Shown: positions 38,235-54,260, numbered from the stretch's first letter. The stretch is 64,000 bases of DNA from an uncultured Nitrososphaerota archaeon (GCA_963838925.1 CAWISW010000003.1:320001-384000), one strand, 5' to 3'. A program made the numbers and translations. Notes: a model not told the origin generated them from the sequence alone.

Positions 38235-38326
38235 GGACTTGCCATGTCGCACAGGGCACATGATGCTACGCTAGAGAACACGCGTTCTAAGGGGCAGAAC
38301 AGGCCGAACGGAGGCTAGATTGGCCC

Positions 38327-38354
38327 CCGGTGGAGGGCATTTCCCTCCAACCGG
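38327..38354. other. Strong hairpin immediately 3' of RNase P RNA
   Basis: CCGG-TGGAGGG-CATTT-CCCTCCA-A-CCGG. Confidence 0.5.
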
Positions 38355-38363
38355 AGTCAGTAT

Positions 38364-38656
38364 GACGCGTGTCGGTCGTAGTCCTCCTCTTGTTCTAGGC
38401 GGGATTCAGCTAAGCGGCCTACCTTGGCCTGGTGCAGGCGCGTCGTCGACCATGTTCGGCCTTGCTCTGCACGGGTCAGCCGTTTCATCCCGCTTCCGCC
38501 GACCTCGGGATTTCTCCGTCATCGCCCTAGACGGGGCGGGTGTCGTTTCTGTTCTGTTGCCAGCCGTCTCCAGCTACGCCTCTCGGCGTCGTGCATCCTG
38601 CAGTGAGGGAGGAACTTCCCCAGGAGACCCCCGTGGCCCACCCACCGACTCACGTC
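38364..38656 (-). ncRNA. rnpB: RNase P RNA
   Basis: Minus strand GGGGAAGTTCCTCC (CR-I), AACAGAAACG (CR-II), GGATGAAACGG (CR-III), GAGCAAG, GCTTAGCTGAAT (CR-IV), ACAAGAGGAGGACTA (CR-V) with P4 and terminal P1 pairing. Confidence 0.93.
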
Positions 38657-38735
38657 GTCCGCTAAACGCACTTGATTCGGAATTAAGTGTTTCGCGCAAC
38701 GCAGCTCCCGGTCGAAGCCAACGAAATCAGACTCC

Positions 38736-40363: not shown

Positions 40364-41659
40364 ATGCCCCGCCGAAGTGTAATCGTGTTTGTGATTACTG
40401 CGTTGGTCGCCACCGGAGCATACCTATCGGTTTCAGAACTTGCGGGTCAGCCCCCCGTCACTTCCAATCAAGTGACTTCGACCGGCAACTCGGTTTCTGT
40501 GGGCAGCTCCGGCAGTTACCAGGTCCTTAAGACGAACCTGACGATATATTATGGTCCGGCCTGCATTCCACCTAACCTTGAGGGCTTCGGCTGCGAGACG
40601 ATAGACACGGCGCTCCATTCCCCTTCCCTCAGCGGGGTGGACCTCATCCAGTACCAGGGCAGCAAGTATTATGGCCTGAACTTCACGGGTTACGAGAACG
40701 GGCAGCCTGACACCCGCGACATCTGGTTCACCAATTCAACGATCCTCTGCGTCAGCCCTCCGACCAGTGAATATCCCCCATGTCCGACGAGCTCTGCACG
40801 GCCGCGCGCCATCGTAATCTTCAACTCATCGGCTTCTGCATTGAACTCCTCAAGCGGTCTTACGCTGAGCCTCCAACTCTCACTCGCCCCCGGGAATTCC
40901 TCCAAGCTGCAAGTTAGGGTGGATCTCTTCAACACGCAACAAGCGGAGAATACAGTAGGCGCCGCAAACAGCTGGCCTGTCTCCAACGACTCTGTGAGGG
41001 ACATTTGCGTAAATCACATCGTCGGATACGTCTTGTATCAGGGACACTATGACTTCGGCAACTTCACTGCGGGCTCGCCTCTGGCCCTTGACCCTACTAA
41101 CACCCAGACGCTGTGTCCCGCGCCCTCATCGTCGGTATATTACTCATTCCAAGCCAACAGCGACAACGCAACGATTCAGGGGGCTAGCGCCTTCCCCTCG
41201 GGCGGTGCAACCCGGACAATCTCAGTCTCAGACAGTCTCTCGGGTTATTGGACCGGGAACCGGACATCATCTTCATTCGACTCGTTCCTCCCTGGAATCT
41301 ACTCTGTGGCTGCAATGGACCAATGGGGGCAGGTCGTCGTGCTCCAGTTCGAGGTCAGCGGAATCAGCCTACAGAACTTCTCGCTCTGCCCCTCTAACTG
41401 CCTCTATCCCAGCCCGTCTCTGACCGGAGAGATCTATTTCGGAGGCCCTTCTCTTGCGAAGAGCATGGAACTCTTCGTCAACGGGACCGACGAAGGGTCT
41501 CTGGGACACGGCATCGGTAGCACCAACGTCATCTACTTGTACAAGGGGAGTTTCCAGTCTCCGCAAGTAATAGCAGGCGATGCGTACGTGATCAAGTTCG
41601 TGGCCACTCTCGCGGACAACTCGACCGCCACCGCCTCGACCACAGTGGTAGCGAAATGA
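40364..41659 (+). CDS. Secreted multidomain protein (accessory family B)
   Basis: Signal anchor; GL.L.L...SDNA...GYW...PG.Y...D.WG module. Confidence 0.8.
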   Translation: MPRRSVIVFVITALVATGAYLSVSELAGQPPVTSNQVTSTGNSVSVGSSGSYQVLKTNLTIYYGPACIPPNLEGFGCETIDTALHSPSLSGVDLIQYQGSKYYGLNFTGYENGQPDTRDIWFTNSTILCVSPPTSEYPPCPTSSARPRAIVIFNSSASALNSSSGLTLSLQLSLAPGNSSKLQVRVDLFNTQQAENTVGAANSWPVSNDSVRDICVNHIVGYVLYQGHYDFGNFTAGSPLALDPTNTQTLCPAPSSSVYYSFQANSDNATIQGASAFPSGGATRTISVSDSLSGYWTGNRTSSSFDSFLPGIYSVAAMDQWGQVVVLQFEVSGISLQNFSLCPSNCLYPSPSLTGEIYFGGPSLAKSMELFVNGTDEGSLGHGIGSTNVIYLYKGSFQSPQVIAGDAYVIKFVATLADNSTATASTTVVAK

Positions 41660-41735
41660 CCCGCAACGATAACCTTCGCTCACCTGGGCAGAGTCGAGAC
41701 GAAACTGTTTTTCTGCTGCCGTACCAGCGTCTGGA

Positions 41736-42200
41736 GTGACCTTGCGCCGAATCGAAGTCGCCGCGGTGATTGTCGTCCTGGCGTCGGCCTGGATAGCGGG
41801 CTACCTCGTCGCCCCATCCTCTTCCCCCGCGACGTCTGTCTCCTATCAGACGGTCACCGGGCTCTACACGTCGTCGGCACTTCAGGTCTTCACTTCGACC
41901 TTCCTCGCGCAGAGCAGCACTCAGAGCGGGGTGAAGACGGCGACCGTCTACAACACGATAACCTACACGACGTCCGCAACCGGACTCACCTCCACGATAA
42001 CTCTCTGCTCATCGGTCGAGTACGCCACCGTCACGACTACGGGGACGGTGACCTCCTATCTCTCAAATGAGACGGTCGTCACCAAGACGACCACGACTGG
42101 CGTGACGACCATACGCGCCGGCTCCACGGTCACCACGACGGGGTGCGATGTTGCCACGGTCACCAGAACTACCACCACTTACGTGACGACGACTCAGTGA
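41736..42200 (+). CDS. Secreted Thr-rich protein
   Basis: N-terminal TM, Thr/Val repeats, two Cys. Confidence 0.75.
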   Translation: MTLRRIEVAAVIVVLASAWIAGYLVAPSSSPATSVSYQTVTGLYTSSALQVFTSTFLAQSSTQSGVKTATVYNTITYTTSATGLTSTITLCSSVEYATVTTTGTVTSYLSNETVVTKTTTTGVTTIRAGSTVTTTGCDVATVTRTTTTYVTTTQ

Positions 42201-42226
42201 TCCGACGCCTTCCAAAGCAGTCAGTA

Positions 42227-42826
42227 TCAACCTTCCTGGGCGTACTGGACGATGAAGGCCAGGTAGTCGGAGCTCTCTCTCAAGATGAGCCAGTCCCCAG
42301 CCCTATAGACATAGGAGTAGCTTGCCGAAAGATTCCCCTCAAAATCCCCCATCATGTTGGAGTGTCCTGAGAAGGACAAGGAAGCACCGAGACTTGCGGT
42401 TCCGTTTGGGAGGAGGCTCGCGTTCTCAGAGCGGATGGTGTAGTTGATCTCCGTCGCGGCGCCCGGGAACGTCCGCAGCGTTGTGCTGATGGCGCTGGTC
42501 CCCCTGTAAGTGCCTCCGAAACCCTGCGTGACCCCATACCAGTACATTATCCCGTTGGACGCGTAGTCCTCCGTTGCCGCGGTATAGTTTCTCTCGTCGA
42601 GGTGCGATAGGTGCATGTTGAATGCTTGGACGACCGCGCTCAGGTTCTTGAGGGACTGCGACTGGGCCGCGGTGTAGCTCCCTACCTCGGAGCTAAGGCC
42701 CGAATTCTCCTTCTGGAGCGATGCGACCAATCCGTATTCGTAGCCGCTGATGAACAGGACGACCACCAGCGCGACAATGAGGCAGATGGCGAGTTCGCTG
42801 CGGACCGTCTTCGGGGTCGGCTCCAA
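42227..42826 (-). CDS. Membrane-anchored NTF2/SnoaL-like protein (family A)
   Basis: HLSHLDERN, W.G.TQG.GG.Y, FSGHSN..G.F.G, WLI..E..D. Confidence 0.8.
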   Translation of the reverse strand: MEPTPKTVRSELAICLIVALVVVLFISGYEYGLVASLQKENSGLSSEVGSYTAAQSQSLKNLSAVVQAFNMHLSHLDERNYTAATEDYASNGIMYWYGVTQGFGGTYRGTSAISTTLRTFPGAATEINYTIRSENASLLPNGTASLGASLSFSGHSNMMGDFEGNLSASYSYVYRAGDWLILRESSDYLAFIVQYAQEG

Positions 42827-42898
42827 GCCACTCGAAAGAGGGTCAGGTCACGGATAAAGGATTCTCGGTTCGGTAAATCGCCTTGCTAGTCGCATCAA

Positions 42899-43106
42899 GA
42901 AGAGATTTCCATCAGCACATCCTTTCTCCGCAAGGGGAGGGGAGAGCTGAGGAGAGCGGCGATAGAAGATCGCGTTGAAGGGGTGGGGGTGTACGCTAGA
43001 AGCCTTCGGGCGACCAGTTCAGCCCGTCCACTACCTATAGCTCAACGTGCGAGTGAAATGCCCCGGCGGAGGGGCAATGAACCCCTGTGCACGGCGAAAT
43101 CACTTT
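42899..43106 (+). ncRNA. Putative structured ncRNA of unknown class
   Basis: No credible ORF; closing stem GAAG.GATTTC/GAAATC.CTTT, G-U-rich GCAA-tetraloop hairpin 42920-42943, GCC-TTCG-GGC, CGTTGA/TCAACG, TGCCCC-GGCGGA-GGGGCA. Confidence 0.6.
43031..43097 (+). repeat. Repeat A copy 1 (3' part of putative ncRNA)
   Basis: CTACCTATAGCTCAACGTGCGAGTGAAATGCCCCGGCGGAGGGGCAATGAACCCCTGTGCACGGCGA. Confidence 0.9.
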
Positions 43107-43151
43107 CATTCGGATAAATCCCGTCCTAGAACAAAGCGGCATACCGGCTGA

Positions 43152-43736
43152 CTATTGGGCGGTCACTGTCACAGTTTCTAGGTCAGCTGGCCTGGAATGG
43201 CTCAGGGGACCTGAGTTCCAGTTTGCGACTGCCTGAACTGTGTAGTTCATCCCTCGAACTATATCGAGCTCTGCATTCGATATCATGAAGGAGTAGTTGG
43301 TCTCCTGCTCGCCACGAGAGTTGGGTGTCCACGTGGGGTCCCAATTGATGCCAGTGGTGTCGATGTGGATTGTGGTGACATTGGTGCCCACTGGCCATCC
43401 ACCATTCACCGGGTTGGGCAGAGCCCACTGCAGTTCGATGGTCGAGGGCGGTGAGAGATCGCTGTGGGTGCACTCTATCGTGCCGGCAAGCAAGCTCTCA
43501 TTCGTTCCAAGCGTGGATGAGGACGTGAGATTGGTGTCGATCAGCAAGATGTATGGGCCGCAATAGGTGTCCGGACCCTCGCAGTTCGTCGATGTCGTGA
43601 CCCCGAACTCGCTCGTTACGCTCGTGGTCTGCCCGCTGCGAGTCGTTGCAAGGTAGCCGACGGCAACCGACCCCAGCACCACGGCGAGCGCCAAGATGAG
43701 CGCGGCAACAGATCTTCCGATTGCGGCTCGAGGCAT
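43152..43736 (-). CDS. Secreted protein with class III-like signal peptide
   Basis: MPRAAIG plus hydrophobic stretch; motif promoter at 43768-43786. Confidence 0.75.
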   Translation of the reverse strand: MPRAAIGRSVAALILALAVVLGSVAVGYLATTRSGQTTSVTSEFGVTTSTNCEGPDTYCGPYILLIDTNLTSSSTLGTNESLLAGTIECTHSDLSPPSTIELQWALPNPVNGGWPVGTNVTTIHIDTTGINWDPTWTPNSRGEQETNYSFMISNAELDIVRGMNYTVQAVANWNSGPLSHSRPADLETVTVTAQ

Positions 43737-43767
43737 TGCAGGCTGGGTTCTGTCGTATCGCGTTCGG

Positions 43768-43786
43768 GATATAGTTTTGTCCGAAC
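43768..43786 (-). promoter_or_regulatory. GTTCGGACAAAA-CTATAT element
   Basis: Match to shared motif upstream of ATG 43736. Confidence 0.7.
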
Positions 43787-43791
43787 CAAGC

Positions 43792-43829
43792 GCCCCGGCG
43801 GAGGCACAATGAACCCTCATGCATTGCGA
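43792..43829 (+). repeat. Repeat A copy 2
   Basis: GCCCCGGCGGAGGCACAATGAACCCTCATGCATTGCGA. Confidence 0.88.
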
Positions 43830-43950
43830 GAATTGCCATTCAGCTCCTGCAATTACGGTTCGACTTTCGGAAACGTACCTTGTAGCCCGTCTAGGACTCA
43901 GATCAAGAGGCTCGTAGCAGACCCTCTCTTCTCGACCCAACTCCCTCTCT

Positions 43951-45507
43951 TCAACCACCGTTCTTGATGGACGTTGCGGAAGTCGTCGTCGTGGTGACGG
44001 TGCTGCTCCCCTCGTTCGACGTGACAACGGTCACCACACCGGACGGGACTGACACCGTGACGTAGATGGTCGAATTGGGATGAACCTGAATCGAAGGGAT
44101 CGTCGCACTATACCCCGGCCCCTGGTTGTAACCGGCCATGAAGGTCACGTTGTAGTAGCCACTCGCGATGAAGGTCATGTTCCCCGCGAGCTGCAGGTAG
44201 CCGGTTCCGTTGACGTCCCCCAGCCTGATGCAGTAGTGGTTTGTCAGGCCCCATTCGCCGTTTGTCGCGTTTCCGAACTGGGTCACGAAGAGTGTCCCAT
44301 TCGTTATGACAGTGCCCTGGTCCGTGGCCACCTTCATGTATACGGTCCCTTTCGGAGCCGGATTCAGCACCGTGTTGAGCGGTGCACCGCAGGCAGGGAA
44401 GTTCACTGTCGTAGATGTGCTCGTTGTTGATGACTGCAGAGTTGTGGAGGCGGAGGACCCGGCCGTGGTGCAACTTGTCCCATAAGTGGTATCAACCGCT
44501 CCAGAAGGAACCTGCAGCGTCACACAGGTGGATCCCGCCCTTTGGCTCGCCGTCACGTTGTAGGTTTGACCACCGTATTCGACGGAGAAAGAATTGGTGG
44601 CGTCCCCGAAGGCATACCATTCTGTGCTCGTGGTCGTGAAGCTCACGAATGCCTCGCCGCTGAAACACGACGGATACACGGAACACGGAACGCACGTGTA
44701 CGGGAAGTCGTAGGATGTCGTCGCGACCGCTCCCGCGACGGGGGCCGAATCGGAGTCCGAAAGCACGCGCAAGTAGACCTCCCCAAAGCACGCGTAAGTG
44801 GACTTCCCCGCCCACGCTACGAGGTTCCCCGCGCAGTCATAGTTCGAGAATTGATAGCTGGCCAGGGTGACCACGCCGGACGGCACGGCGAGCGTAACAC
44901 ACGTCGTCGAATCAGGGTAAGTGCCCCCTGAGAACAAGTATGTGTTGCCGGCATAGCCTACCGTAAAATTGTAGCCCCCGGCGATGTTGTCTGTTGAATT
45001 ATTGGGAATGTCGAACCATCCCGACGACCCTTCGCTGACTCTGTCAAAGTAAAGCGTCTCTGTCGTATGGAACTCTGCGGCGTTGCAGCCCGTCTCAAAG
45101 GCGGCGCTGACGGCAGGCGCGCCTTGCTGAACCGGCATCCCAGTGGTGTCTGACACGACCTGCAACTCCATCGTGGCACCGCCCGGGGGAGTGCAGTTGG
45201 TCATGGTGGCGTTCATCTCGGTGGACGTCGTCAGAGAGCTAGAGAGACTCACGTTTGCCGAGTAGGTGCTTTGAGTGTCGGCAATCCTCGAAACCGTGGA
45301 AGAGGTTGAGGTCTGTGAGGTCGCCACGGTTTCGGTCCCTTGGGACGTCGAAGCTGTCGTGCTCGTCGTGCTGTTAGGTAACGAGCTGGTCCCCTGTGAA
45401 AAGAAAGCCGCGGTTATTGCAACTAGCCCAACTGTAATGGTAACAAGAGCAATCGAGAGGTATCGTGCCGCAAGGGCGGTCCTCTTTTGACCGACTTCAA
45501 ACCTCAT
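43951..45507 (-). CDS. Secreted protein with three internal Cys-containing beta-sandwich-like repeats
   Basis: TM plus Thr stalk; V.SD...P...Y..T......VT..VPSG.V three times. Confidence 0.8.
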   Translation of the reverse strand: MRFEVGQKRTALAARYLSIALVTITVGLVAITAAFFSQGTSSLPNSTTSTTASTSQGTETVATSQTSTSSTVSRIADTQSTYSANVSLSSSLTTSTEMNATMTNCTPPGGATMELQVVSDTTGMPVQQGAPAVSAAFETGCNAAEFHTTETLYFDRVSEGSSGWFDIPNNSTDNIAGGYNFTVGYAGNTYLFSGGTYPDSTTCVTLAVPSGVVTLASYQFSNYDCAGNLVAWAGKSTYACFGEVYLRVLSDSDSAPVAGAVATTSYDFPYTCVPCSVYPSCFSGEAFVSFTTTSTEWYAFGDATNSFSVEYGGQTYNVTASQRAGSTCVTLQVPSGAVDTTYGTSCTTAGSSASTTLQSSTTSTSTTVNFPACGAPLNTVLNPAPKGTVYMKVATDQGTVITNGTLFVTQFGNATNGEWGLTNHYCIRLGDVNGTGYLQLAGNMTFIASGYYNVTFMAGYNQGPGYSATIPSIQVHPNSTIYVTVSVPSGVVTVVTSNEGSSTVTTTTTSATSIKNGG

Positions 45508-45598
45508 TACTACTCGTTGCGAAAGAGCGGTTGGAGATACTTACAGGTTGCGCACTAATGTTCTAGGCCTATCCAAGCCGGAGTCGAGGTCCCACACC

Positions 45599-45632
45599 CG
45601 GCGGAGGCGCAATGAACCCTTATGCACGGCGA
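45599..45632 (+). repeat. Repeat A copy 3
   Basis: CGGCGGAGGCGCAATGAACCCTTATGCACGGCGA. Confidence 0.9.
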
Positions 45633-45721
45633 TTGCCCGCATTTTCTCAAAGCTACCGGGAGCTGGAACGTTCGGAGACAAAGGTATTAGTGAGCAGGAG
45701 GGCCTTCACGCTCCGATCTCC

Positions 45722-47005
45722 ATGACACTGCCGACGAACAGCGACAGGAGACTGGTCTACGTAGCCGCGGCGATAATAGTCGGCGTAGTGCTCGTATCGG
45801 CAGCAATCATACTCCCTCCAGCCATCCATCAGACGAAGACAGCGCCACCATCGACCTCGACCACGGTATCTCAACCATCGGTCTCGACTAACGCCTCAAG
45901 CACGACAGCAGACGCGACCGGGCTCCGACTTTCGCTGGCCATAAACAATGACGTGATAGCTGAAGGGGGCAGCATCTCAATCAACATCACAGATTTCAAC
46001 ATACTGCCGGTCAGTAACTCACCCCAGCCTATCAGCATCTTGAGGCTCGGCACGAGCGCGTGCCCTACATCGTTGCCCCTTGGTGTTGGGATATTCCAGG
46101 GCGACTTCGACGCCGGAAACGTCTCCAGCGCCCAGCCGATGGATCTCTACCAACCAGGAGTCTACAGCTGTCCCGGCATTCCATCGGGCGGCTACTCCTA
46201 CACCTTTGAGCCGGAGAGCGACAACGTGAACCTCTCCGTCGGGACGAGCACTGCGACGCACACCGTTACAGACAACGGCACGACTAGCGTGCAGTACATC
46301 GTCACGAATCCCACATACGTCAAGGACGCGTCCGCAACTCTGCAGTATTCGGGCTATTGGACGGGGGAAGCGACCTTCACCTTCTCGAACGCCACCTTTC
46401 ATTCCTTTGGTGCGGGGGAGTACACCATCGAAGCGGTCGACTTGTGGGGCCACGAGGTGTTCGCCCACTTCCAAGTAGTCCCGAACCCTGCATCGTCGGC
46501 CACAACCACGACGATAACGGTTGCTGCACCCGGCCAGTGTCCTGCAGGGAACACTTGCGCTTCTTTCAGCTACAACTCTGACGGCCAGGTCAAGGTGGAT
46601 TCCGTCAACGCGACCCAGCAGGCGTGCTTCAACTGCGGAGTCGTGAATGGGAACGGTCACTCGTACGTGTACATTCAGGTGACGTTCGAGAACACAGGCA
46701 GCTTGCCTATCTACATCCCAGACGGCTCGGCAGTGATTTCAACGTCGCCCTCGTCGAACTCCTCTGTGCTCCAGCAGGTGGTCTCGGCCCAGTGCGCAGG
46801 AACATATTCGATCCTGGAGCTCGACCCCGGGAAGAGCGCCACATTCTCAGGTCCTTCCTGCGAGGACGGATTTGCATACCAGATGGTCAATCCTGGGACC
46901 GTGACCCTCACTCTCAGTTTCAATTGGACGACCAACTCGCAAGCTTCGACAAATCCGACCGACTTCCAAGAGAAAACCACAATCTTGGCGCAGCTCACTT
47001 TCTAG
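45722..47005 (+). CDS. Secreted multidomain protein (family B)
   Basis: TM; GLRLSL...ESDNV...SGYW...GEY...DLWG; GTTCGGAGACAAAGGTATTA at 45670. Confidence 0.8.
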   Translation: MTLPTNSDRRLVYVAAAIIVGVVLVSAAIILPPAIHQTKTAPPSTSTTVSQPSVSTNASSTTADATGLRLSLAINNDVIAEGGSISINITDFNILPVSNSPQPISILRLGTSACPTSLPLGVGIFQGDFDAGNVSSAQPMDLYQPGVYSCPGIPSGGYSYTFEPESDNVNLSVGTSTATHTVTDNGTTSVQYIVTNPTYVKDASATLQYSGYWTGEATFTFSNATFHSFGAGEYTIEAVDLWGHEVFAHFQVVPNPASSATTTTITVAAPGQCPAGNTCASFSYNSDGQVKVDSVNATQQACFNCGVVNGNGHSYVYIQVTFENTGSLPIYIPDGSAVISTSPSSNSSVLQQVVSAQCAGTYSILELDPGKSATFSGPSCEDGFAYQMVNPGTVTLTLSFNWTTNSQASTNPTDFQEKTTILAQLTF

Positions 47006-47043
47006 TTAGGCCGTGGCATTAGTGTCGGGCGAGATTGAACTCT

Positions 47044-47072
47044 CGGCGCAGGTGCAATGAACCCTTATGCAC
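47044..47072 (+). repeat. Repeat A copy 4 (3'-truncated)
   Basis: CGGCGCAGGTGCAATGAACCCTTATGCAC. Confidence 0.85.
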
Positions 47073-47079
47073 AGTTATG

Positions 47080-48792
47080 CTAGCAGAGCGTCAGGTTTGA
47101 TACCAGCGACACCCCGTCGTAGATGCTTAGCGCCCCGCAAGCGCCTGGGCCGACCATGCCCTCCGCGTCGACCCACTCGGGGCTGGTCGAGGAGCTCACT
47201 ATGTTGAGGAATGAACCGGGCGAATCAAAAGTGGCCGCGATGGTCCCGTTGTACCCTATCAGTCGGACGGTCGTCCCGTCTCCCACGATCACCAACGAAG
47301 CACCGTTGACGAATGCCAGCGGGTTCCCGTAGCCGGTGTCGTTCCAGAGGATGTTACCACTTGAGTCGAAGAGGAGCTTACCGACGTTGCCGCCCGAAGC
47401 TATGTATCCGCCATCGGAAGACATGAAGAGCGGCTGGACAGCGGTGTATGCCTGCCTCTTCCAGAGGACGTCGCCATCTTTGCCGCTGAAGTAGTAGACG
47501 CTCCCGTTCTCGCCGTTCACGAACGTCCCCACCGCCACCCTGGAGCCGTCGCTCGACATCTGCACGAAGTTCACGCCTTCGCCTTGATTGCCAATATGAC
47601 TCCACAGAAGGCGACCTTGCGAGTCGAGGTAGACCACTCCCCAGCTGAAATCGGTCCGGTTGGGGAGCAGCATGTACTGCACCGCGCTCACGACGTAGTC
47701 TCCTTGGCCCGACGTAGCGATGTGCATGCCCGAGCCTCCGTAGGGGAAAGTGTAGTTCCAAAGTACTGAACCAGCGTCATTCAAGCAGAGTATGCCCCAG
47801 TAGTAGTCCGCGAATATCCTTGAACCGTCTGGCGACATCCCCAGCGAAATCACCGAACCCTTCGCGGTGACGTTCCAGAGCTGTGCGCCCTCCCCGTCGA
47901 AGAGAAAGAGGACACCGGTATCGCTGACATGCCCGAGCCGCTCCAAACCGTATCCGCCCGCTGCGACATAGGACGCATTCTGAGAGACAGCCACCGACTC
48001 TATGTTGCTATTGTTGGTGACACGCCTCCAGAACACCCCTTGGGATTGGCTCCGCAACGAGACCAGGTACACGGAGCCGTTGCCGCCGCCTCCTATGCTG
48101 ATTGTCCCCACTGCGGCGTAGCCTCCGTCCGGACTTATGCTCTCAGCATCAGGCCTCTGGGTAGCCGCTTGTCCTGGAGGCGGAGGCCCTCCACCCTGCT
48201 GGGAATACTGAATGTTGAAGTTTGTGAAGTCCCAGTGCTCGGCGGAGATCAGCCAGACGCCTTCCGCAGGGAAGTAGGCATAGGAATCGTTCGCCAAGAC
48301 AGCACCAGCGAAGTTCCCCCAGATGTTGCTGTGGCCGGAGAACGAGAAGTTCCAGTCCACCAACACCGCGCTTGTCGAGGGCAGGATTGTCTGCGTCACG
48401 TTCGTGATCTGGAACGACGACATTCCACCTATCGCGGTCTCAAGTGTGAGTTTGATGTCGGTCCGAGACTCGTAAGAGCCGCCAAGGCCTTGAGTAGTTC
48501 CTACCCACGTCATCGTCCCATTGGGTGCGAAGAGATCGGCGACTGCCGAGGCGTTCCTCGACTCGAGCAGTGAGACATGCATCGCGTGCGTTGCGTTGAC
48601 CATCTCGACGGCCTGTGAGGGAGGGGACGGGTAACTCGAGGACGCGTTGGTTGTGGTCGATACGCTCGATGCCGAGGAGGTCGCCGTCTCAGTACTGCTC
48701 TGCAGACTCACCAGAGGCAACGACACCAGGGTGAGAACGGCGATCATCACAAGCGCCTGCGCCGCGACGAACAGACCTTCTTTTCTTCTCAT
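47080..48792 (-). CDS. Secreted protein: family A domain fused to PQQ/WD40-like beta-propeller
   Basis: WLISAEHWDF domain then repeated S.DG..V/A...G.V..F...G..LW blades. Confidence 0.82.
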   Translation of the reverse strand: MRRKEGLFVAAQALVMIAVLTLVSLPLVSLQSSTETATSSASSVSTTTNASSSYPSPPSQAVEMVNATHAMHVSLLESRNASAVADLFAPNGTMTWVGTTQGLGGSYESRTDIKLTLETAIGGMSSFQITNVTQTILPSTSAVLVDWNFSFSGHSNIWGNFAGAVLANDSYAYFPAEGVWLISAEHWDFTNFNIQYSQQGGGPPPPGQAATQRPDAESISPDGGYAAVGTISIGGGGNGSVYLVSLRSQSQGVFWRRVTNNSNIESVAVSQNASYVAAGGYGLERLGHVSDTGVLFLFDGEGAQLWNVTAKGSVISLGMSPDGSRIFADYYWGILCLNDAGSVLWNYTFPYGGSGMHIATSGQGDYVVSAVQYMLLPNRTDFSWGVVYLDSQGRLLWSHIGNQGEGVNFVQMSSDGSRVAVGTFVNGENGSVYYFSGKDGDVLWKRQAYTAVQPLFMSSDGGYIASGGNVGKLLFDSSGNILWNDTGYGNPLAFVNGASLVIVGDGTTVRLIGYNGTIAATFDSPGSFLNIVSSSTSPEWVDAEGMVGPGACGALSIYDGVSLVSNLTLC

Positions 48793-48859
48793 GCTTGGTC
48801 ACCGTGTGGAACAATCGGTAGCAGCCGAGGGCTGCTTCGAGAAGAAGGGCCCGCCTCAG

Positions 48860-48877
48860 TAAATAGTTTTGTCCGAG
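48860..48877 (-). promoter_or_regulatory. CTCGGACAAAA-CTATTTA element
   Basis: Shared motif upstream of 48792. Confidence 0.65.
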
Positions 48878-48923
48878 CTGGGCGCGAGGCCGTAAATAGG
48901 TCCGATGGCCATTCCGGCACGAC

Positions 48924-49163
48924 ATGAATAAAGGAACGATTCTGCTTCTTGCTGCCGGAGCTTGCGCGATAGGCTGCGCCTTCGTCTGTTTCTTCTTTTT
49001 CGTTCCAATAATAAGGATGGACATAACGCCTTGCGAACCTAATGGTGCTGGGGTTGGATATGCTTCTTTGTCATATCACTTGTTCTACATGGGAATGAAC
49101 TATCTTGGAAACCAATTAGTCTGGATGACGGGAAGTAATGCCAGTTGCATGGGGCTTCCCTAA
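48924..49163 (+). CDS. Small membrane protein
   Basis: 79 aa, N-terminal TM, AT-rich. Confidence 0.55.
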   Translation: MNKGTILLLAAGACAIGCAFVCFFFFVPIIRMDITPCEPNGAGVGYASLSYHLFYMGMNYLGNQLVWMTGSNASCMGLP

Positions 49164-49225
49164 GATTATCATCACCCGCGACTGGACACCCGAGGCGAAT
49201 CACCCGACCATTGGACAGAACCGCT

Positions 49226-49258
49226 GGGCGGAGGCCCGATGAACCCTGTGTATGGCGA
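49226..49258 (+). repeat. Repeat A copy 5
   Basis: GGGCGGAGGCCCGATGAACCCTGTGTATGGCGA (1-nt deletion). Confidence 0.82.
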
Positions 49259-49394
49259 AGCCCTTCTACTTCATTTTAGACAAACGCAGCGGAGCCCGCG
49301 CCCCTCGGAACGAGACTTCGAAGCCCAACCCTCCGCTAATCACGTTCGGACAATCCCTTAACTGGGACCTCGCTCTGTCGTTAGAACGTTCGAA

Positions 49395-50273
49395 ATGCGT
49401 CCGATTGCTGGCGCTGCCGTTGCCGCAGTCATTGTGGTCGCGGGGCTTGGAGGATACCTCATAGCTACAGGAGCGATGTCGCCCGGCTCTTCGCAGACCA
49501 GGTCACAGACGACAGTCACCGTTACTGCTTCGAGCACGGAAACCGCAACCGCGGCCTTCAACGGATCATCGTACTACAGCGACAATGTAACAGGCATCAT
49601 GATAACGGAGAACCCGGGGGCATTCCACTTCGACAACGGGTCGGTGACGTTCATGGGAGTGGAGTTCCAGACGATCTGCACGGATTACGGCGCTGGATGT
49701 CCGGTCCCGGCTCCCCCTCCAGGAACAACGTTCGTGGTGCCCTCCGGCGCAAGCATCACCCTGAACGTCACCTTCCCAGACCACAGCAGCGAGATTGTCG
49801 AGGGGGGACCTTTATTTGCAGGGCCTGTTCGCTCGGATACATTCTCTCATCACATCGATCCTCAGGCGGGGATTATGATAGTGTACAACGATTCGGACCC
49901 CATCTACAAGTCCTACCTGCTCGTCTCCATTCCGGAGCCGACACCGAGCCAAGCGACGAACTCCAGCACATCGGGCGACGCAGGGACTTCCTCGAATACC
50001 TCCGTCGCGACCTCCACGGCGACCGAGACCCTCACCACGCAGGCCTCCCAGGCTACGACGAGTTACGCTGCTCCGACTTCTGACTGCACCTTACTGGGCG
50101 GTACCGTCACGGTGACGACCACTGTCACTGCCTTCGCGCCGCCCGCGACGTCTACCGTCACGGTGACGACAACGACAGTCTCGACCAGCTACACCCAAAC
50201 CGTCACCGTGACCAGTTGCACATACACCGAGCCGACGGTCACTTCTACCGTCACGACCACAGCGAGCCCGTAG
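49395..50273 (+). CDS. Secreted protein with Thr-rich C-terminal module
   Basis: TM; GTTCGGACAATCCCTTAA at 49344; TVTVT repeats with Cys pair. Confidence 0.8.
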   Translation: MRPIAGAAVAAVIVVAGLGGYLIATGAMSPGSSQTRSQTTVTVTASSTETATAAFNGSSYYSDNVTGIMITENPGAFHFDNGSVTFMGVEFQTICTDYGAGCPVPAPPPGTTFVVPSGASITLNVTFPDHSSEIVEGGPLFAGPVRSDTFSHHIDPQAGIMIVYNDSDPIYKSYLLVSIPEPTPSQATNSSTSGDAGTSSNTSVATSTATETLTTQASQATTSYAAPTSDCTLLGGTVTVTTTVTAFAPPATSTVTVTTTTVSTSYTQTVTVTSCTYTEPTVTSTVTTTASP

Positions 50274-50276
50274 GGA

Positions 50277-50310
50277 CGGCGGAGGCGCAATGAACCCTTA
50301 TGCATGGCGA
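50277..50310 (+). repeat. Repeat A copy 6
   Basis: CGGCGGAGGCGCAATGAACCCTTATGCATGGCGA, 3 nt after the stop of the preceding gene. Confidence 0.9.
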
Positions 50311-50396
50311 AGTCACTCATTTCCATTGCCGAAGCTCAGTCTAACTACCAAGTTCAAAAGAGACCTCCTGACTTCTACCTCACGCAGGGTTGCGGA

Positions 50397-51530
50397 GTGC
50401 CAAAGCGTGTTCCACATTTCCGTTCCAGCCGCTCGGCGGCGAGCATCTTTCTTGCCCTCTTGGTCGTCTGCATCATGCTCGCTCCCTTCGCCAGAGCCCA
50501 AGATGCAGTCACGTCCATCACTGTCGGATACTATCCTGATGCGGCAGCGTACGACGCTTCAAAGGGAGAGGTGTTCGTGGCCAATTCTGGCTCCGAGAGC
50601 CTGTCCGTGATATCCGACAGCAGCAATCAGGTTATCGCGACGGTAAGCTTGGGGAGCGCTCCGAATGATTTGGCCTATGATCCCGCAAGAGGAGAAGTGT
50701 TCGTGACCGATGCGGCCGCTAGCGACGTCCTCGTAATATCTGATACCACGAACTCAATCGTCGACACCATAGCGTTGCCCCCAAACAGTCAGCCCATGTA
50801 CATCGAGTACGACCCCTCGAAGGGCGAGATGTTCGTAGCAGATCGCGGCTCGGCCACAATCTCAGTGATATCTGATAGCGCCGACACGATTGTCGCGACC
50901 ATAATCATGCAACCCCAAACAAGCTCGTTTGTATACATGGCCTACGACTCTGCCAAGGTCGAGATGTTCCTCACCAATCCTGTGACTCACGACGTTTCCA
51001 TTGTCTCAGACACAACCAACACCGTCATCGCAAACGTGACCTTGCCTGCCATAGCAGATCCCACGAGCATAGTATTCGACCCCGCGAGGGGCGAGATGTT
51101 TGTGGCGAATTTCGATTCAAACATCTTCGTCATATCGGACAGCAGCAACACGCTAGTCGCGACGATGAATGCAGTTAGCGGATCAAAGGCCGAGGTCTAC
51201 GACTCGGCTCGGGGCGAGATTTTCGTAGCGAATGCTGACACTGCCTCGATCTCTATCATATCCGACAATAACAACACGGTCTTGACGACAGCGTTTTTGC
51301 CGATGGCAAGTACGCCCTCTGACCTTGCCTATGACTCCGCCAAGGGAGAGGTGTTCGCAACAGACTCAGGGGGTACCACAGTCTACGTCGTATCAGACGC
51401 ACAATCATCGACCATCACTACAAGTTCCACGGCCCCAGAATTCTCCCAAGGCGACACAGTCATCGTGATGGCGGCAATGATAATGTGCATTGCATTGCTG
51501 ACAAGGAACTATCGTTCAACGTGCGAGTGA
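50397..51530 (+). CDS. YVTN/YncE-type beta-propeller surface protein with PEF-CTERM-like tail (start uncertain)
   Basis: Seven YD.A(K/R)GE(V/M)FV...SVISD..N..(V/I)AT repeats; APEF + TM + RNYR. Confidence 0.85.
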   Translation: MPKRVPHFRSSRSAASIFLALLVVCIMLAPFARAQDAVTSITVGYYPDAAAYDASKGEVFVANSGSESLSVISDSSNQVIATVSLGSAPNDLAYDPARGEVFVTDAAASDVLVISDTTNSIVDTIALPPNSQPMYIEYDPSKGEMFVADRGSATISVISDSADTIVATIIMQPQTSSFVYMAYDSAKVEMFLTNPVTHDVSIVSDTTNTVIANVTLPAIADPTSIVFDPARGEMFVANFDSNIFVISDSSNTLVATMNAVSGSKAEVYDSARGEIFVANADTASISIISDNNNTVLTTAFLPMASTPSDLAYDSAKGEVFATDSGGTTVYVVSDAQSSTITTSSTAPEFSQGDTVIVMAAMIMCIALLTRNYRSTCE

Positions 51531-51571
51531 AATGCCACGGCGGAGGTGCAATGAACCCTTGTGCATGGCGA
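51509..51571 (+). repeat. Repeat A copy 7 (long)
   Basis: CTATCGTTCAACGTGCGAGTGAAATGCCACGGCGGAGGTGCAATGAACCCTTGTGCATGGCGA. Confidence 0.9.
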
Positions 51572-51645
51572 TTGCCCGCACTTTCAACAAGCTAGCGGAG
51601 CCTCCACACGGAATAATAGGCGCCGCCGCTATTCCCGCATCCAAG

Positions 51646-52326
51646 CTGAAGGCAAAGACGAGCGCCTATGTGGCCGCTCAAATCGCCGCTTTTGCTGCCG
51701 TGTTGGTCCTGATCTCATTGCCACTCGAGTCAGGGAGCCAGCAACCGATTTCGGCGCCCTCCACCAGTCAAGAGCTGACCTTCACATCGTTTAGTTGCAC
51801 TTCCACCTCGAAGGCCGTCACTAACGTGTTGCCCGTCAGCTCTGAATCCCAATTGCTTTCAATGGTCAACAGCAGCTTTACCGAGCATCTCCTGCATCTC
51901 GGCTCTAGAAACACCTTCGCGGCAACGAACGACTTCGAGGATGGGGCGCAAATGGCCTGGTCGGGGTCGGGGTTCGCCAACGCCGGAGGCTTCGCAGGAA
52001 ACTACACTGGGTTGCGGGCAATCAACGAGGTCTACGAGGGGCTCTTGGAAATCCCAACTTCACTCTCCATTGTCAACGAGAGCTGGACTTTGGCCACAAC
52101 CGGGCCAGAGTCGGCCGTGGTCCACTCTTCACTGGGATTCGAGGGATACGGCAACGCAACGCATGGGGAGGGCTTCGACGCCCAAGTCGTTGGAACAGAC
52201 TATTACGTGGCCGCAAACGGCTGGCAGATTTCGCAGGAATTCTGGAATTTCACGAGCTTCGACTGGCAATACTCGTTCTCAACAATGTTTGGCCCTGGCC
52301 CATCTGACGATTCGTGCTACCACTAG
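51646..52326 (+). CDS. Membrane-anchored NTF2/SnoaL-like protein (family A), probable CTG start
   Basis: LKAKTSAYVAAQ...VLVLISLPL aligns with N-termini of 48792 and 55090 genes; HLLHL.SRN, WQISQEFWNF. Confidence 0.78.
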   Translation: MKAKTSAYVAAQIAAFAAVLVLISLPLESGSQQPISAPSTSQELTFTSFSCTSTSKAVTNVLPVSSESQLLSMVNSSFTEHLLHLGSRNTFAATNDFEDGAQMAWSGSGFANAGGFAGNYTGLRAINEVYEGLLEIPTSLSIVNESWTLATTGPESAVVHSSLGFEGYGNATHGEGFDAQVVGTDYYVAANGWQISQEFWNFTSFDWQYSFSTMFGPGPSDDSCYH

Positions 52327-52341
52327 AGCATCCAGCGCCAG

Positions 52342-52396
52342 CTACCTATAGCTCAACGTACGAGTGAAATGCCCCGGGGGAGGCGCAACGATCCCT
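52342..52396 (+). repeat. Repeat A copy 8 (long 5' side, divergent 3' end)
   Basis: CTACCTATAGCTCAACGTACGAGTGAAATGCCCCGGGGGAGGCGCAACGATCCCT. Confidence 0.9.
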
Positions 52397-52568: not shown

Positions 52569-52802
52569 ATGCCCATGGCTTTCGTGCTTATCAACGCAGA
52601 TTTAGGGGCCGAGGAGGAGCTGCTAAAGTCGCTCAGAGGGTTGGAGTTCGTACGCGATGTGTACGTCGTCTACGGAGTTTACGATATTATAGCTCGCGTC
52701 GAGGCCGACACCATGGAGAAGGTCAAGGAGACCATCACGTGGAAGATTCGCAGGCTCGACCGCGTCAGGAGCACCCTGACGATGATAGTCGTCGAGGGCT
52801 AG
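52569..52802 (+). CDS. Stand-alone Lrp/AsnC ligand-binding (RAM) domain protein
   Basis: MPMAFVLIN...VYGVYDII.RVEA...IRRLD.VRSTLTMIV; TTTTATA box at ~52532. Confidence 0.92.
   Translation: MPMAFVLINADLGAEEELLKSLRGLEFVRDVYVVYGVYDIIARVEADTMEKVKETITWKIRRLDRVRSTLTMIVVEG
52761..52802 (+). repeat. Repeat B copy 1 (3' end of Lrp gene)
   Basis: CGCGTCAGGAGCACCCTGACGATGATAGTCGTCGAGGGCTAG. Confidence 0.92.
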
Positions 52803-53682: not shown

Positions 53683-53712
53683 GGAGGCGCCCTTGGGACA
53701 ACAAATAACCAA

Positions 53713-53754
53713 CGCGTCAGGAGCACGCTGACGATGATCGTCGTCGAAGGCTAG
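53713..53754 (+). repeat. Repeat B copy 2
   Basis: 39/42 identical to Lrp 3' end; all three changes synonymous. Confidence 0.92.
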
Positions 53755-53765
53755 GTGTTAATGCT

Positions 53766-54014
53766 TCAATCGTAAGCTGAGCTTCTCGGCGCAATCTTGA
53801 AGACGAGTATCTCGTCTTGAGGAAGTATCGAGTACAGGACGCGAATGTCGCCGACTCTCAGCCTGTAAGAATTCAAGGCTCCCTTGAGCTTCTTGCAACC
53901 GGGCGGATACGGAGTGTCGATAAGTTCGGAAATCTTGGACCCCAATCGAGCCTTCAAGTCCGCCGAAGCACTGTCGAGGCTTTTCCTTGCCTTGGTCGAC
54001 AGGTATACCTTCAA
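53766..54014 (-). CDS. relE: RelE/ParE family toxin
   Basis: PYPPGCKKLKG...YRLRVGDIRVLY...FKIAPR..AY. Confidence 0.9.
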   Translation of the reverse strand: MKVYLSTKARKSLDSASADLKARLGSKISELIDTPYPPGCKKLKGALNSYRLRVGDIRVLYSILPQDEILVFKIAPRSSAYD

Positions 54015-54184: not shown

Positions 54185-54236
54185 CGATTGATTAGTCAGC
54201 TGAGATAATTAAACACAACAGCGCTCGAATCATCCG

Positions 54237-54260
54237 GACGATGATAGTCGTCGAAGGCTA
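54237..54260 (+). repeat. Repeat B copy 3
   Basis: GACGATGATAGTCGTCGAAGGCTA, 23/24 to Lrp 3' end. Confidence 0.88.

What the first reader, a model, noticed from the sequence alone, without database searches (positions are those of the whole stretch)
42899..52396. Integrase-less cassette array: 3' end of a putative ncRNA repeated 8 times, one surface-protein gene per interval
Seen: consensus CGGCGGAGGnGCAATGAACCCTTrTGCAyGGCGA starts at 43064, 43796, 45599, 47044, 49226, 50277, 51538 and 52375. All copies are on the + strand, 0.7-2.2 kb apart. Each interval holds one secreted-protein gene in either orientation (one interval holds two). Copy 1 is the 3' end of a ~200-nt structured element. Copies 7 and 8 extend ~30 nt further 5' into it, and all other copies lie only downstream. 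No integrase, transposase, attC-type GTTRRRY box or cas gene was recognised in the window. Established: serial site-specific integration into tRNA/tmRNA genes leaves this pattern of displaced 3' fragments. Inference: minimal one-gene cassettes are serially captured at this RNA gene by a recombinase acting in trans, or by homology-anchored recombination. That would be an integron-like system for diversifying the archaeal cell surface that I do not recognise as described.
Basis: partly seen in the sequence, partly recalled or inferred. Interest (0 to 1): 0.9.

Follow-up and report, generated by a model that had tools for sequence, protein, structure and literature searches.

The report
Gene-cassette arrays built on 23S rRNA tail
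A genus of soil archaea stores dozens of small swappable gene cassettes, each bounded by a copy of the sequence that normally helps trim its large ribosomal RNA, and this window holds a second, smaller such array.

Summary
The eight co-oriented repeats are real. The "putative ncRNA" is not a new RNA. It is the last ~160 nt of the genome's single 23S rRNA gene plus its trailer. The repeat core (GAGGCGCAATGAACCC) is the 3' strand of the 23S processing stem, including its bulge-helix-bulge half. The real 23S gene lies 160 kb away and is followed by a 33-kb array of 18 such copies. Relatives in the same genus (Nitrososphaerales, group I.1c type) carry 12-52 copies directly after their 23S gene, all in one orientation and 0.4-2.5 kb apart. 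Cassettes are discrete. The same cassette, bounded exactly by cores, sits at different ranks in different species or twice in one array. Cargo is mostly unknown proteins, toxin-antitoxin genes, defence genes and secreted proteins. The window's array lies in a variable island that is empty in three of five relatives compared. No integrase lies in any main array, the site has no attC-like hairpin, and core decay shows no polarity along the arrays. Small arrays also ride on tRNA-integrating elements. The recombination mechanism is open: a sequence-specific enzyme acting in trans is my best guess, and homologous recombination is the main rival. I found no description in print.

The parts
42896..43098 (+). 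Fragment of the 23S rRNA gene (last ~160 nt) plus ~40 nt of trailer. It heads the window's array and contains copy 1.
   Evidence: RF02540 match at 42952-43043 to model positions 2885-2973 of 2987, 51.4 bits, E 5e-14. It is 98% identical to G000 C3:203859-204060(-), the end of the real 23S gene at C3:203899-207577.
43064..43097 (+). Repeat copy 1 (core 43069-43084)
43796..43829 (+). Repeat copy 2
45599..45632 (+). Repeat copy 3
47044..47072 (+). Repeat copy 4 (3' part cut short)
   Evidence: (families D2, D5)
49226..49258 (+). Repeat copy 5
   Evidence: (D5)
50277..50310 (+). Repeat copy 6. It starts 4 nt after the stop codon of gene F.
51509..51571 (+). Repeat copy 7 with a ~30-nt 23S-like 5' extension. 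The stop codon of gene G lies inside the extension.
   Evidence: (D1, 90%)
52346..52396 (+). Repeat copy 8, with a 23S-like extension and a degenerate core (3 mismatches). It is the last copy of the array.
   Evidence: (D1 78%, D5 81%)
43152..43739 (-). Cassette gene A: 195 aa, N-terminal membrane anchor, no family
43951..45507 (-). Cassette gene B: 518 aa, Ser/Thr-rich secreted or anchored protein
   Evidence: Homologues lie in G021 23S-array cassettes.
45722..47005 (+). Cassette gene C: 427 aa, anchored protein
47080..48792 (-). Cassette gene D: 570 aa, PQQ-type beta-propeller
   Evidence: PF13360, E 2e-10
48924..49163 (+). Small membrane ORF E (79 aa), in the same interval as D
49395..50273 (+). 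Cassette gene F: 292 aa, anchored and Thr-rich
   Evidence: 64% aa identity over 70 aa to G009 cassette c05.
50304..51530 (+). Cassette gene G: NHL/YVTN beta-propeller with a C-terminal membrane helix. The start codon is uncertain.
   Evidence: PF01436. TIGR02276 hit, and a weak PEFG-CTERM hit at 18.7 bits, below the 25-bit cut-off. 46% identity over 334 aa to G015 cassette c39.
51532..52326 (+). Cassette gene H: up to 264 aa. The start is uncertain because the ORF's first codons are the repeat itself.
   Evidence: 60% identity over 230 aa to G009 cassette c01.
40364..42826 (.). Left part of the island without cores. It holds three secreted or anchored-protein ORFs (40364-41659 +, 41736-42200 +, 42227-42826 -) of the same cassette gene pool.
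   Evidence: Homologues lie in cassettes of G009, G012 and G021.
38367..38653 (-). RNase P RNA, part of the conserved left flank of the island
   Evidence: RF00373, 182 bits. Synteny in 5 of 5 relatives compared.
52569..52802 (+). AsnC-type 77-aa gene, the conserved right flank of the island
   Evidence: PF01037. Synteny in 5 of 5 relatives compared.

Best explanation
The window holds a secondary array of a genus-wide gene-cassette system. Its recombination site is the 3' strand of the 23S pre-rRNA processing stem, with core GAGGCGCAATGAACCC covering the bulge-helix-bulge half.

Shown:
- The repeat is the 23S 3' end and trailer.
- The main arrays start at the end of the single 23S gene.
- A cassette runs from just after one core to the end of the next. 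The variable 23S-like stretch belongs to the cassette's 3' end.
- Cassettes recur as whole units at other ranks, in other species, at this secondary island, and inside tRNA-integrating elements.

Inferred:
- Cassettes are cut out and put in at the core by a sequence-specific recombinase or integrase acting in trans. That enzyme is not identified and is not encoded in the arrays.
- Homologous recombination or gene conversion against the resident 23S end then homogenises the flanks.
- The window's array probably arose when a block ending in a long 23S-type repeat landed between the RNase P RNA region and the AsnC-type gene. It then served as a further site for exchange.
For: - Identity of the repeat. 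In a cofold the trailer pairs with the 23S leader as helix, 4-bp GCGC, bulges, helix. The 5' half occurs once per genome in the 6 of 10 fetched regions that reach it.
- Arrays: G000 has 18 copies, all on the - strand, directly after the 23S. G009 has 48, G015 52, G007 27, G021 32, G012 14, G018 12, G010 13 (12 in one orientation) and G022 12.
- Conservation over 235 copies peaks on the 16-nt core and falls on both sides.
- Modularity: there are 197 inter-core segments with a median of 948 nt. G007 c17 equals G015 c13 at 95% over the full length. G015 c15 equals G015 c32 at 97%. Ranks are shuffled between genomes. In 3 of 3 alignable pairs (5 tried) similarity starts after the left core and stops right after the right core.
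- 28 copies have a core with 1 mismatch or fewer and unrelated flanks on both sides.
- Island polymorphism at the window's site: 8 cores in G000, about 9 in G009, 1 in G012, and 0 in G018, G007 and G015.
- Six of the 8 window cassette proteins have homologues in 23S-array cassettes elsewhere.
- Mini-arrays follow an integrase plus J-domain gene in 4 loci on tRNA-integrating elements, and a fifth, more divergent locus has one core.
- The integrase family was found in 12 of the 17 genomes with 3 or more repeat matches and in 0 of the 6 others. This is only a weak hint, because relatives and assembly quality are not independent.
Against: - No recombinase is tied to the site. None of the PF00589 hits listed lies in a fetched main array.
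- G000 (87% complete) has one unrelated tyrosine recombinase, no serine recombinase and no member of the element integrase family.
- The single-contig genome G007 has only one tyrosine recombinase. It sits in a variable island that is missing at the syntenic place in G000, where the sequence reads like a tRNA gene (by eye).
- The element integrase sits right after an intron-bearing tRNA. In G009 a 16-nt repeat of the tRNA end lies 9.6 kb downstream, so its own target is probably the tRNA.
- The 23S-like extensions match the host's own 23S end best in 50 copies and another genome's in 7, with 10 of 10 in G021. That points to homology-driven conversion.
- Core mismatches run on smoothly (0:69, 1:47, 2:45, 3:30, 4:25 of 216), so part of the apparent core conservation comes from how copies were found.
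- Core decay shows no polarity along the arrays: pooled rho 0.02, p 0.75, n 226.
Confidence: 0.5

Rival explanations
1. There is no dedicated enzyme. General homologous recombination (RadA) and gene conversion among rRNA-derived direct repeats make and reshuffle the arrays. Crossing-over between two repeats loops out a cassette circle, which can re-enter at any other repeat or at the 23S end. DNA taken up from relatives is anchored by the conserved repeat.
For: - Extensions track the host's own 23S end, 50 against 7.
- Homology to the native locus has variable length on both sides of the core: 80 of 235 copies have 21 nt or more of 23S-like sequence, 29 of 235 reach 50-70 nt, and 126 of 235 keep the trailer motif.
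- No recombinase lies in the arrays.
- Core decay shows no polarity.
- SAR11 HVR2 sets a precedent: its authors proposed the 23S and 5S genes as anchors for homologous exchange of a surface-gene island (passages of PMC2217521).
Against: - Many junctions share only about 20-24 nt. 28 copies have a near-perfect core but unrelated flanks, which is short for RadA-type recombination.
- It does not explain how a new gene first acquires a core on both sides.
- It does not explain why only the 3' strand half of the stem is copied and never the 5' half.
Confidence: 0.3
2. This is the classical pattern. Integrase-carrying elements (viruses, plasmids) integrated one after another into the 3' end of the 23S gene, as at tRNA genes, and then decayed. 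What remains is displaced 3' fragments and leftover cargo.
For: The intact gene sits at one end and co-oriented 3' fragments lie downstream. Tandem re-use of one site by tyrosine-recombinase elements is known in archaea (passages of PMC6563490). Partial tRNAs scattered in islands are described for tycheposons (passages of 10.1101/2020.12.28.424599).
Against: - Units have a median of 948 nt, and 101 of 197 are 1 kb or less.
- There are no integrase remnants in about 150 cassette ORFs or in the G000 arrays.
- Intact whole-cassette copies occur at different ranks and are duplicated within an array.
- Core decay does not increase with distance from the 23S.
- The 20-mer occurs in no IMG/VR contig, and the 11 hits of the 16-mer lack the flanks and look like chance.
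Confidence: 0.1
3. The copies are kept for an RNA-level role. Each core is half of a bulge-helix-bulge site that can pair with the excised 23S leader, in trans or in a long read-through transcript, so that the splicing endonuclease cuts cassette transcripts. The arrays themselves form by some other recombination.
For: The most conserved 16 nt are exactly the central helix, the trailer-side bulge and the neighbouring helix ends of the predicted stem. All copies have the orientation of the rRNA transcript.
Against: No expression data were available. One third of the cassette ORFs are antisense to the core (69 of 197). The secondary arrays are far from the rRNA promoter. This reading does not explain cassette mobility.
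Confidence: 0.07
4. It is an artefact or a dispersed repeat, caused by mis-assembly of rRNA-adjacent repeats or by a MITE/REP-type element.
For: MAG assemblies often break at rRNA genes. One solitary copy exists at G000 C1:131729.
Against: The same architecture appears in 10 separately fetched arrays, including a single-contig genome. The exact 20-mer occurs in 90 or more stretches of many independent records titled Nitrososphaerales or Thaumarchaeota. Copies are clustered and co-oriented.
Confidence: 0.02

Closest known systems
Integrons, especially sedentary chromosomal integrons and CALINs (attC clusters lacking an integrase), including the archaeal integrons of Ghaly et al. 2022 (PMC9668308, passages read)
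   Same: Both are long co-oriented arrays of small, mostly one-gene cassettes, each ending in a recombination site. Cassettes are shuffled and duplicated as units. Cargo is dominated by unknown proteins plus toxin-antitoxin, acetyltransferase and methyltransferase genes. Arrays often have no integrase beside them, and small arrays ride on other mobile elements.
   Different: There is no IntI. The best integron-integrase model scores 24-40 bits against cut-offs of 265 or more. The site is not an attC: it shows no hairpin (12 of 12 ssDNA folds are no better than shuffles) and no GTTRRRY box. It is a copy of a host rRNA processing-stem strand. Cassette genes point both ways (128:69). The main array is anchored to the 23S gene, not to an attI.
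tRNA/tmRNA-anchored genomic islands built by serial integration, e.g. tycheposons of Prochlorococcus (bioRxiv 10.1101/2020.12.28.424599, passages read) and tandem iMGEs in archaea (PMC6563490, passages read)
   Same: An intact RNA gene sits at one end and displaced 3' fragments lie in direct orientation through a flexible island. Cargo serves defence and niche adaptation.
   Different: The target is the 23S rRNA trailer. 'rRNA' and '23S' occur 0 times in the main text of PMC6563490. Units are about 1 kb, without integration or replication modules. No integrase remnants were found. Copy numbers are much higher, up to 52.
SAR11 hypervariable region HVR2 (PMC2217521, passages read)
   Same: It is a flexible island directly beside the sole 23S rRNA gene, rich in cell-surface genes, with rRNA genes proposed as recombination anchors.
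   Different: HVR2 is one 48-kb block between the 23S and 5S genes, with no internal rRNA-fragment repeats and no cassette structure. Here the 5S gene lies 218 kb away and the island is cut into cassettes by up to 52 repeats.
Xer-dependent modules (IMEX elements at dif; pdif modules of Acinetobacter plasmids).
   Same: Small integrase-less modules are bounded by a short host-type recombination site and are presumably moved by a host recombinase in trans.
   Different: No dif-like 11-6-11 site was shown here. Only a weak 8-nt dyad (6 of 8) around the junction was seen, by eye. No XerA equivalog was found: the best score is 96 bits against a 220-bit cut-off. Sites here are all in direct orientation.

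Membership tests
Integron | An IntI-type tyrosine recombinase beside the array | tested here: not met
   There is no PF00589 hit in the window or in any fetched main array. The element integrase scores 24.1 bits on TIGR02249 (cut-off 265), and its relative in G007 scores 40.3.
Integron | attC sites: imperfect palindromes that fold as single strands, with an R' GTTRRRY box | tested here: not met
   Twelve of 12 single-strand DNA folds of the window's copies (8 on +, 4 on -) have z-scores of -0.88 to +1.36 against shuffles. The consensus shows no GTTRRRY at the junction. No attC covariance model was available.
Integron | Co-oriented array of small cassettes that move as units | tested here: met
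Integron | Cassette genes mostly promoterless and in one orientation | tested here: not met
   The largest ORF is sense in 128 and antisense in 69 of 197 cassettes.
Serial site-specific integration into an RNA gene (tRNA-island type) | Intact target gene followed by direct 3' fragments | tested here: met
   Met for the main arrays. The window's array has only a 160-nt gene fragment at its head.
Serial site-specific integration into an RNA gene (tRNA-island type) | Units carry, or carry remnants of, their own integrase | tested here: not met
Serial site-specific integration into an RNA gene (tRNA-island type) | Newest unit lies next to the gene and older ones decay distally | tested here: not met
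   Core mismatches against rank give pooled rho 0.02, p 0.75. Per-array signs are mixed, 6 positive and 4 negative.
CRISPR array | Short repeats with short spacers of about 26-72 nt, and cas genes | tested here: not met
   Spacings are 275-9296 nt and hold genes. Cas1 was found in 4 of 23 genomes of the genus, not in G000, G007 or G015.
MITE/REP-type dispersed repeat | Copies scattered genome-wide in both orientations | tested here: not met
   By blastn, 22 of 23 G000 copies lie in two arrays, each in one orientation.
Xer/dif-type modules | A dif-like site bound by a host Xer recombinase | tested here: inconclusive
   No protein reaches the XerA model cut-off (only 2 recombinases tested). The dyad symmetry is weak and was judged by eye.
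Archaeal 23S rRNA 3' end and processing stem | Match to the LSU model's 3' end, and pairing of trailer with leader in a bulge-helix-bulge-like stem | tested here: met
   Cleavage by the splicing endonuclease was not testable.

The most novel reading that the evidence does not exclude
A previously undescribed gene-capture platform of archaea. A recombinase or integrase that is neither IntI nor array-encoded, or a nuclease-plus-repair route, uses one strand of the 23S pre-rRNA processing stem (its bulge-helix-bulge half) as a portable 16-24-nt cassette site. It builds arrays of 50 or more cassettes directly behind the rRNA operon and seeds secondary arrays in the chromosome and on tRNA-integrating elements that can carry cassettes between species. 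A bolder form adds that the same cores also act in RNA, pairing with the excised 23S leader so that cassette transcripts are cut in step with rRNA synthesis.
Probability: 0.4. Interest if true: 0.92.

Novelty: new variant of a known kind. Interest (0 to 1): 0.8.

Why it matters
Integron-like cassette stores are known as engines of rapid adaptation in bacteria. In archaea only classical IntI/attC integrons have been reported. Here an abundant group of acid-soil archaea keeps a large, fast-changing store of toxin-antitoxin, defence and surface genes behind its only rRNA operon. The store uses a host RNA-processing sequence as the joint between cassettes.

If a dedicated enzyme exists, it is a new site-specific recombination system with a defined 16-nt target. 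If homology alone does the work, it shows that a cell can run an integron-like system with no integrase.

Either way it explains part of the flexible genome of these uncultured archaea. It also gives a simple sequence handle (the core) for recovering their cassette pool from metagenomes. The question is directly testable with two-core substrates.

Tried and rejected
- **Rfam at gathering thresholds over the whole window.** It missed the 23S fragment. Only the sensitive scan of 401 nt found it.
- **ARAGORN.** It found no tRNA in the window or in the arrays, and it missed the intron-bearing tRNA beside the element integrase.
- **Reads.** The only runs served were short Logan contigs of 4 soil runs from one study. 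Joints between repeat copies had sides of 20-49 nt, and many different loose ends abut the cores. In a community full of such repeats this cannot tell circles or empty sites from other array contexts. I draw no conclusion from it.
- **Viral contigs.** The 20-mer gave 0 hits. The 16-mer gave 11 hits without the flanking repeat sequence, so they look like chance.
- **Integrase beside the window's array.** tblastn with the element integrase and its J-domain neighbour found no integrase in G000. It found only a 44%-identical J-domain fragment next to the last core of the main array.
- **attB-like core at the empty syntenic sites.** None was found in G015, G007 or G018.
- **Shared flank after the last core.** A short resemblance between the window's flank and the element arrays' flank did not extend and was dropped.
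- **Conserved gene at the distal end of the main arrays.** None was found in the stretches fetched.
- **CRISPR-adaptation-like or casposase model.** Cas1 is in only 4 of 23 genomes, and core decay shows no leader-proximal polarity.
- **Not used.** The metagenome-contig scan was skipped because contigs ending in a repeat cannot be told from circles. Structure prediction and complex prediction were also not used.


Full report
**Observation**

None is expected by chance. The 21-nt core family recovers all eight, all on the + strand and 732-2182 nt apart. Copies 7 and 8 share about 30 more nucleotides 5' with copy 1 (family D1). Each interval holds one long ORF with a hydrophobic N-terminus, in either orientation, and one interval holds two. 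Pfam finds no integrase, transposase or cas family in 16 ORFs of 40-56 kb or in 49 of the other 50 ORFs of 100 aa or more. The unscanned one, 38320-38739, overlaps the RNase P RNA.

**What the '200-nt element' is**

A sensitive Rfam scan matches window 42952-43043 to positions 2885-2973 of the 2987-position archaeal LSU rRNA model (51.4 bits, E 5e-14). The genome has one 23S gene, at G000 C3:203899-207577 on the minus strand. Window 42896-43098 is 98% identical to its end plus trailer. The element is therefore a displaced 23S 3' fragment, not a separate ncRNA.

Cofolding the 23S leader and trailer pairs trailer CCCCGGCGGA / GCGC / GAACCCTGTGTATGGC with leader TCCGCCGGGG / GCGC / GCCGTGCATAGGGTTC, with bulges either side of the 4-bp helix. 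That is the form of an archaeal bulge-helix-bulge processing site. The register of the bulges is ambiguous, and cleavage is inferred, not shown. The repeat is this 3' strand. The 5' strand occurs once per genome in the 6 of 10 fetched regions that reach it.

**Genome-wide picture**

In G000 the core also occurs 15-18 times on the minus strand from C3:203871 down to 171267, starting at the very end of the 23S gene. By blastn only one copy lies outside the two arrays; the looser core searches add three weak matches elsewhere. Cargo there includes a type I restriction-modification system, a PIN/MazE pair, Fic, a NERD-HEAT protein, a radical SAM protein, a DDE transposase and many unknown ORFs.

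Record titles carrying the exact 20-mer name Nitrososphaerales or Thaumarchaeota MAGs, among them 'Candidatus Gagatemarchaeum'. Within the genus, 18 of 22 other genomes match the element. Outside the genus, genomes have at most 2 matches, which is their own 23S end. Fetched regions after the 23S gene hold the following copy numbers:

| Genome | Copies |
|---|---|
| G009 | 48 |
| G015 | 52 |
| G007 | 27 |
| G021 | 32 |
| G012 | 14 |
| G018 | 12 |
| G010 | 13 |
| G022 | 12 |

All copies are co-oriented except one in G010.

**Anatomy of the unit**

Over 235 copies, conservation peaks at GAGGCGCAATGAACCC and falls on both sides.
- 126 of 235 keep the trailer-like ATGCATGGCGA after the core (control: 2 of 192).
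- 80 of 235 carry 21 nt or more of 23S-like sequence before it.
- 29 of 235 reach 50-70 nt of 23S-like sequence.

The 197 inter-core segments have a median of 948 nt. 101 are 1 kb or less, and 19 exceed 2.5 kb. The largest ORF is sense in 128 and antisense in 69.

The same cassette recurs as a whole unit.
- G007 c17 and G015 c13 are 95% identical over 841 and 842 nt.
- G015 c15 and c32 are 97% identical within one array.
- Ranks are shuffled between genomes; 78 pairs align over 200 nt or more.
- Five pairs were aligned. In the 3 that aligned end to end, similarity begins right after the left core and ends right after GAACCC of the right core. The 23S-like stretch therefore belongs to the cassette's 3' end.

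Of 150 cassette ORFs from six relatives, 92 have no Pfam family. Fifteen are PIN, three ParE, one HicA and one VapB. The rest include Fic, GNAT, methyltransferases, NHL propellers, Mrr, AIPR and Schlafen-type proteins. One is a DDE transposase and none is a site-specific recombinase.

**The window's array in context**

The island lies between the gene next to the RNase P RNA (window about 39.9 kb) and an AsnC-type gene (52569). The same interval compares as follows:

| Genome | Interval | Cores |
|---|---|---|
| G000 | 12.6 kb | 8 |
| G009 | 28.5 kb | about 9 |
| G012 | 12.6 kb | 1 |
| G018 | 6.0 kb | 0 |
| G007 | 4.6 kb | 0 |
| G015 | 1.8 kb | 0 |

Six of the eight window cassette proteins, and two of the three upstream ORFs, have homologues inside 23S-adjacent cassettes of other species. 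For example, H matches G009 c01 at 60% over 230 aa, and G matches G015 c39 at 46% over 334 aa. The window therefore holds a secondary array drawing on the same cassette pool. Here that pool is dominated by anchored or secreted proteins, two of them beta-propellers.

**Search for the enzyme**

- G000 has one tyrosine recombinase (C3:13607-14902, unrelated in sequence to those below) and no serine recombinase.
- None of the PF00589 hits in 23 genomes of the genus lies in a fetched main array.
- A 443-aa integrase with a zinc ribbon, followed by a small J-domain membrane protein, is followed within 60-150 nt by a core and a mini-array of 1-4 cassettes in four loci (G012, G020, G009, G018). A fifth, more divergent locus has one core.
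- That integrase sits directly after an intron-bearing tRNA gene, recognised by eye in the alignment. In G009 a 16-nt repeat of the tRNA end lies 9.6 kb downstream. It is therefore most simply the integrase of a tRNA-integrating element that carries a mini-array.
- A 50%-identical relative is the only tyrosine recombinase of the single-contig genome G007. It sits in a variable block that is missing at the syntenic place in G000, where the sequence reads like a tRNA gene (by eye).
- The family occurs in 12 of the 17 genomes with 3 or more repeat matches and in 0 of the 6 others. This is a hint only.
- Cas1 is in 4 of 23 genomes.

**Mechanism**

In favour of a sequence-specific process:
- The shared unit is often only 20-24 nt. 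28 copies have a core with 1 mismatch or fewer and unrelated flanks on both sides.
- Cassettes are tightly packed.
- Only one strand-half of the stem is ever copied.
- A weak dyad, GCGCAATG ... CATGGCGA, brackets the junction. This was judged by eye.

In favour of homology:
- 23S-like extensions match the host's own 23S end best in 50 copies and another genome's in 7, and in G021 in 10 of 10.
- Homology to the native locus has variable length on both sides.
- No enzyme is found.

Core decay does not rise with distance from the 23S (pooled rho 0.02, p 0.75, n 226). This speaks against simple serial integration with distal ageing, and against CRISPR-like polar addition. Core mismatch counts run on smoothly to my detection limit, so the sharpness of core conservation is partly a result of how copies were ascertained.

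I put a trans-acting sequence-specific enzyme, with later conversion by homology, at about 0.5, and pure homologous recombination at about 0.3.

**Comparison with what is known**

- The site is not an attC: 12 of 12 single-strand folds are no better than shuffles.
- The recombinases found are far below the integron-integrase cut-offs.
- Archaeal integrons as published are IntI/attC systems. 'Thaumarchaeota', 'Nitrososphaer' and 'rRNA' each occur 0 times in the main text of that paper (PMC9668308, passages).
- The survey of thaumarchaeal integrated elements lists tRNA genes, intergenic sites and protein genes as targets. It has 0 occurrences of 'rRNA' or '23S' in its main text (PMC6563490, passages).
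- The family-level genomics paper on Gagatemarchaeaceae has 0 occurrences of integron, mobile, repeat, island or integrase (PMC10640624).
- SAR11 HVR2 is a surface-gene island between the 23S and 5S genes without internal repeats (PMC2217521, passages).
- Tycheposon islands hold partial tRNAs and integrase-bearing elements (bioRxiv 10.1101/2020.12.28.424599, passages).
- Full-text searches returned no description of rRNA-end cassette arrays. Supplementary tables were closed and could hold relevant entries.

**Verdict**

The RNA is the 23S rRNA, the window's array is secondary, and the enzyme is unknown. It is a new variant of cassette-array systems and could prove to be a new kind.

Noticed in passing
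G000 C3:203899-207577 (locus L013): The 23S gene spans 3679 nt against a 2987-position model, so about 690 nt are extra. This could be an intron or an expansion.
   Followed up: no
window 52742-52801, 53694-53753, 54201-54260; ParE at 53766-54014: Three copies of a 60-nt repeat lie to the right of the array. The first is the conserved 3' end of the small AsnC-type gene at 52569-52802, and the others probably belong to paralogues. A ParE-type toxin ORF sits among them. G012 has at least four such gene ends at the syntenic place, one directly after a core.
   Followed up: partly
L106, L107, L108, L109 (just upstream of the element integrase): An intron-bearing tRNA gene, conserved in four genomes, is missed by ARAGORN. 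The element integrase starts about 30 nt after its 3' end.
   Followed up: partly
G000 C3:171375-171515 (L014): A J-domain fragment, 44% identical to the J-domain protein of the integrase elements, lies just before the last core of the main array. This is the same order as in those elements and hints at exchange between the platforms.
   Followed up: partly
L140 9931-11401 (G000 C3:14931-16401): A gene that reads like glutamine synthetase (judged by eye from the translations; not scanned) is split into two overlapping ORFs beside the 431-aa recombinase. This may be a frameshift or an assembly error.
   Followed up: no
loci L039 and L068: Two short contigs binned as Acidimicrobiales and Acidobacteria carry the exact archaeal 20-mer, one of them twice. 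They are probably mis-binned archaeal array fragments.
   Followed up: no
G009 C3:1830352-1831173: A weak Cas1-like match (31 bits) lies in a 633-aa open frame about 33 kb upstream of the 23S gene.
   Followed up: no
window 50535-51365: Gene G contains seven tandem units of about 126-135 nt (NHL/YVTN blades) that show up as DNA repeat families D3 and D4.
   Followed up: no
window 31216-34508 and 56492-57520: A phosphoesterase and an SMC/SbcC-type ATPase (probably Mre11 and Rad50) and a Rad51/KaiC-like paralogue lie within 10 kb of either side of the island. This is probably coincidental.
   Followed up: no
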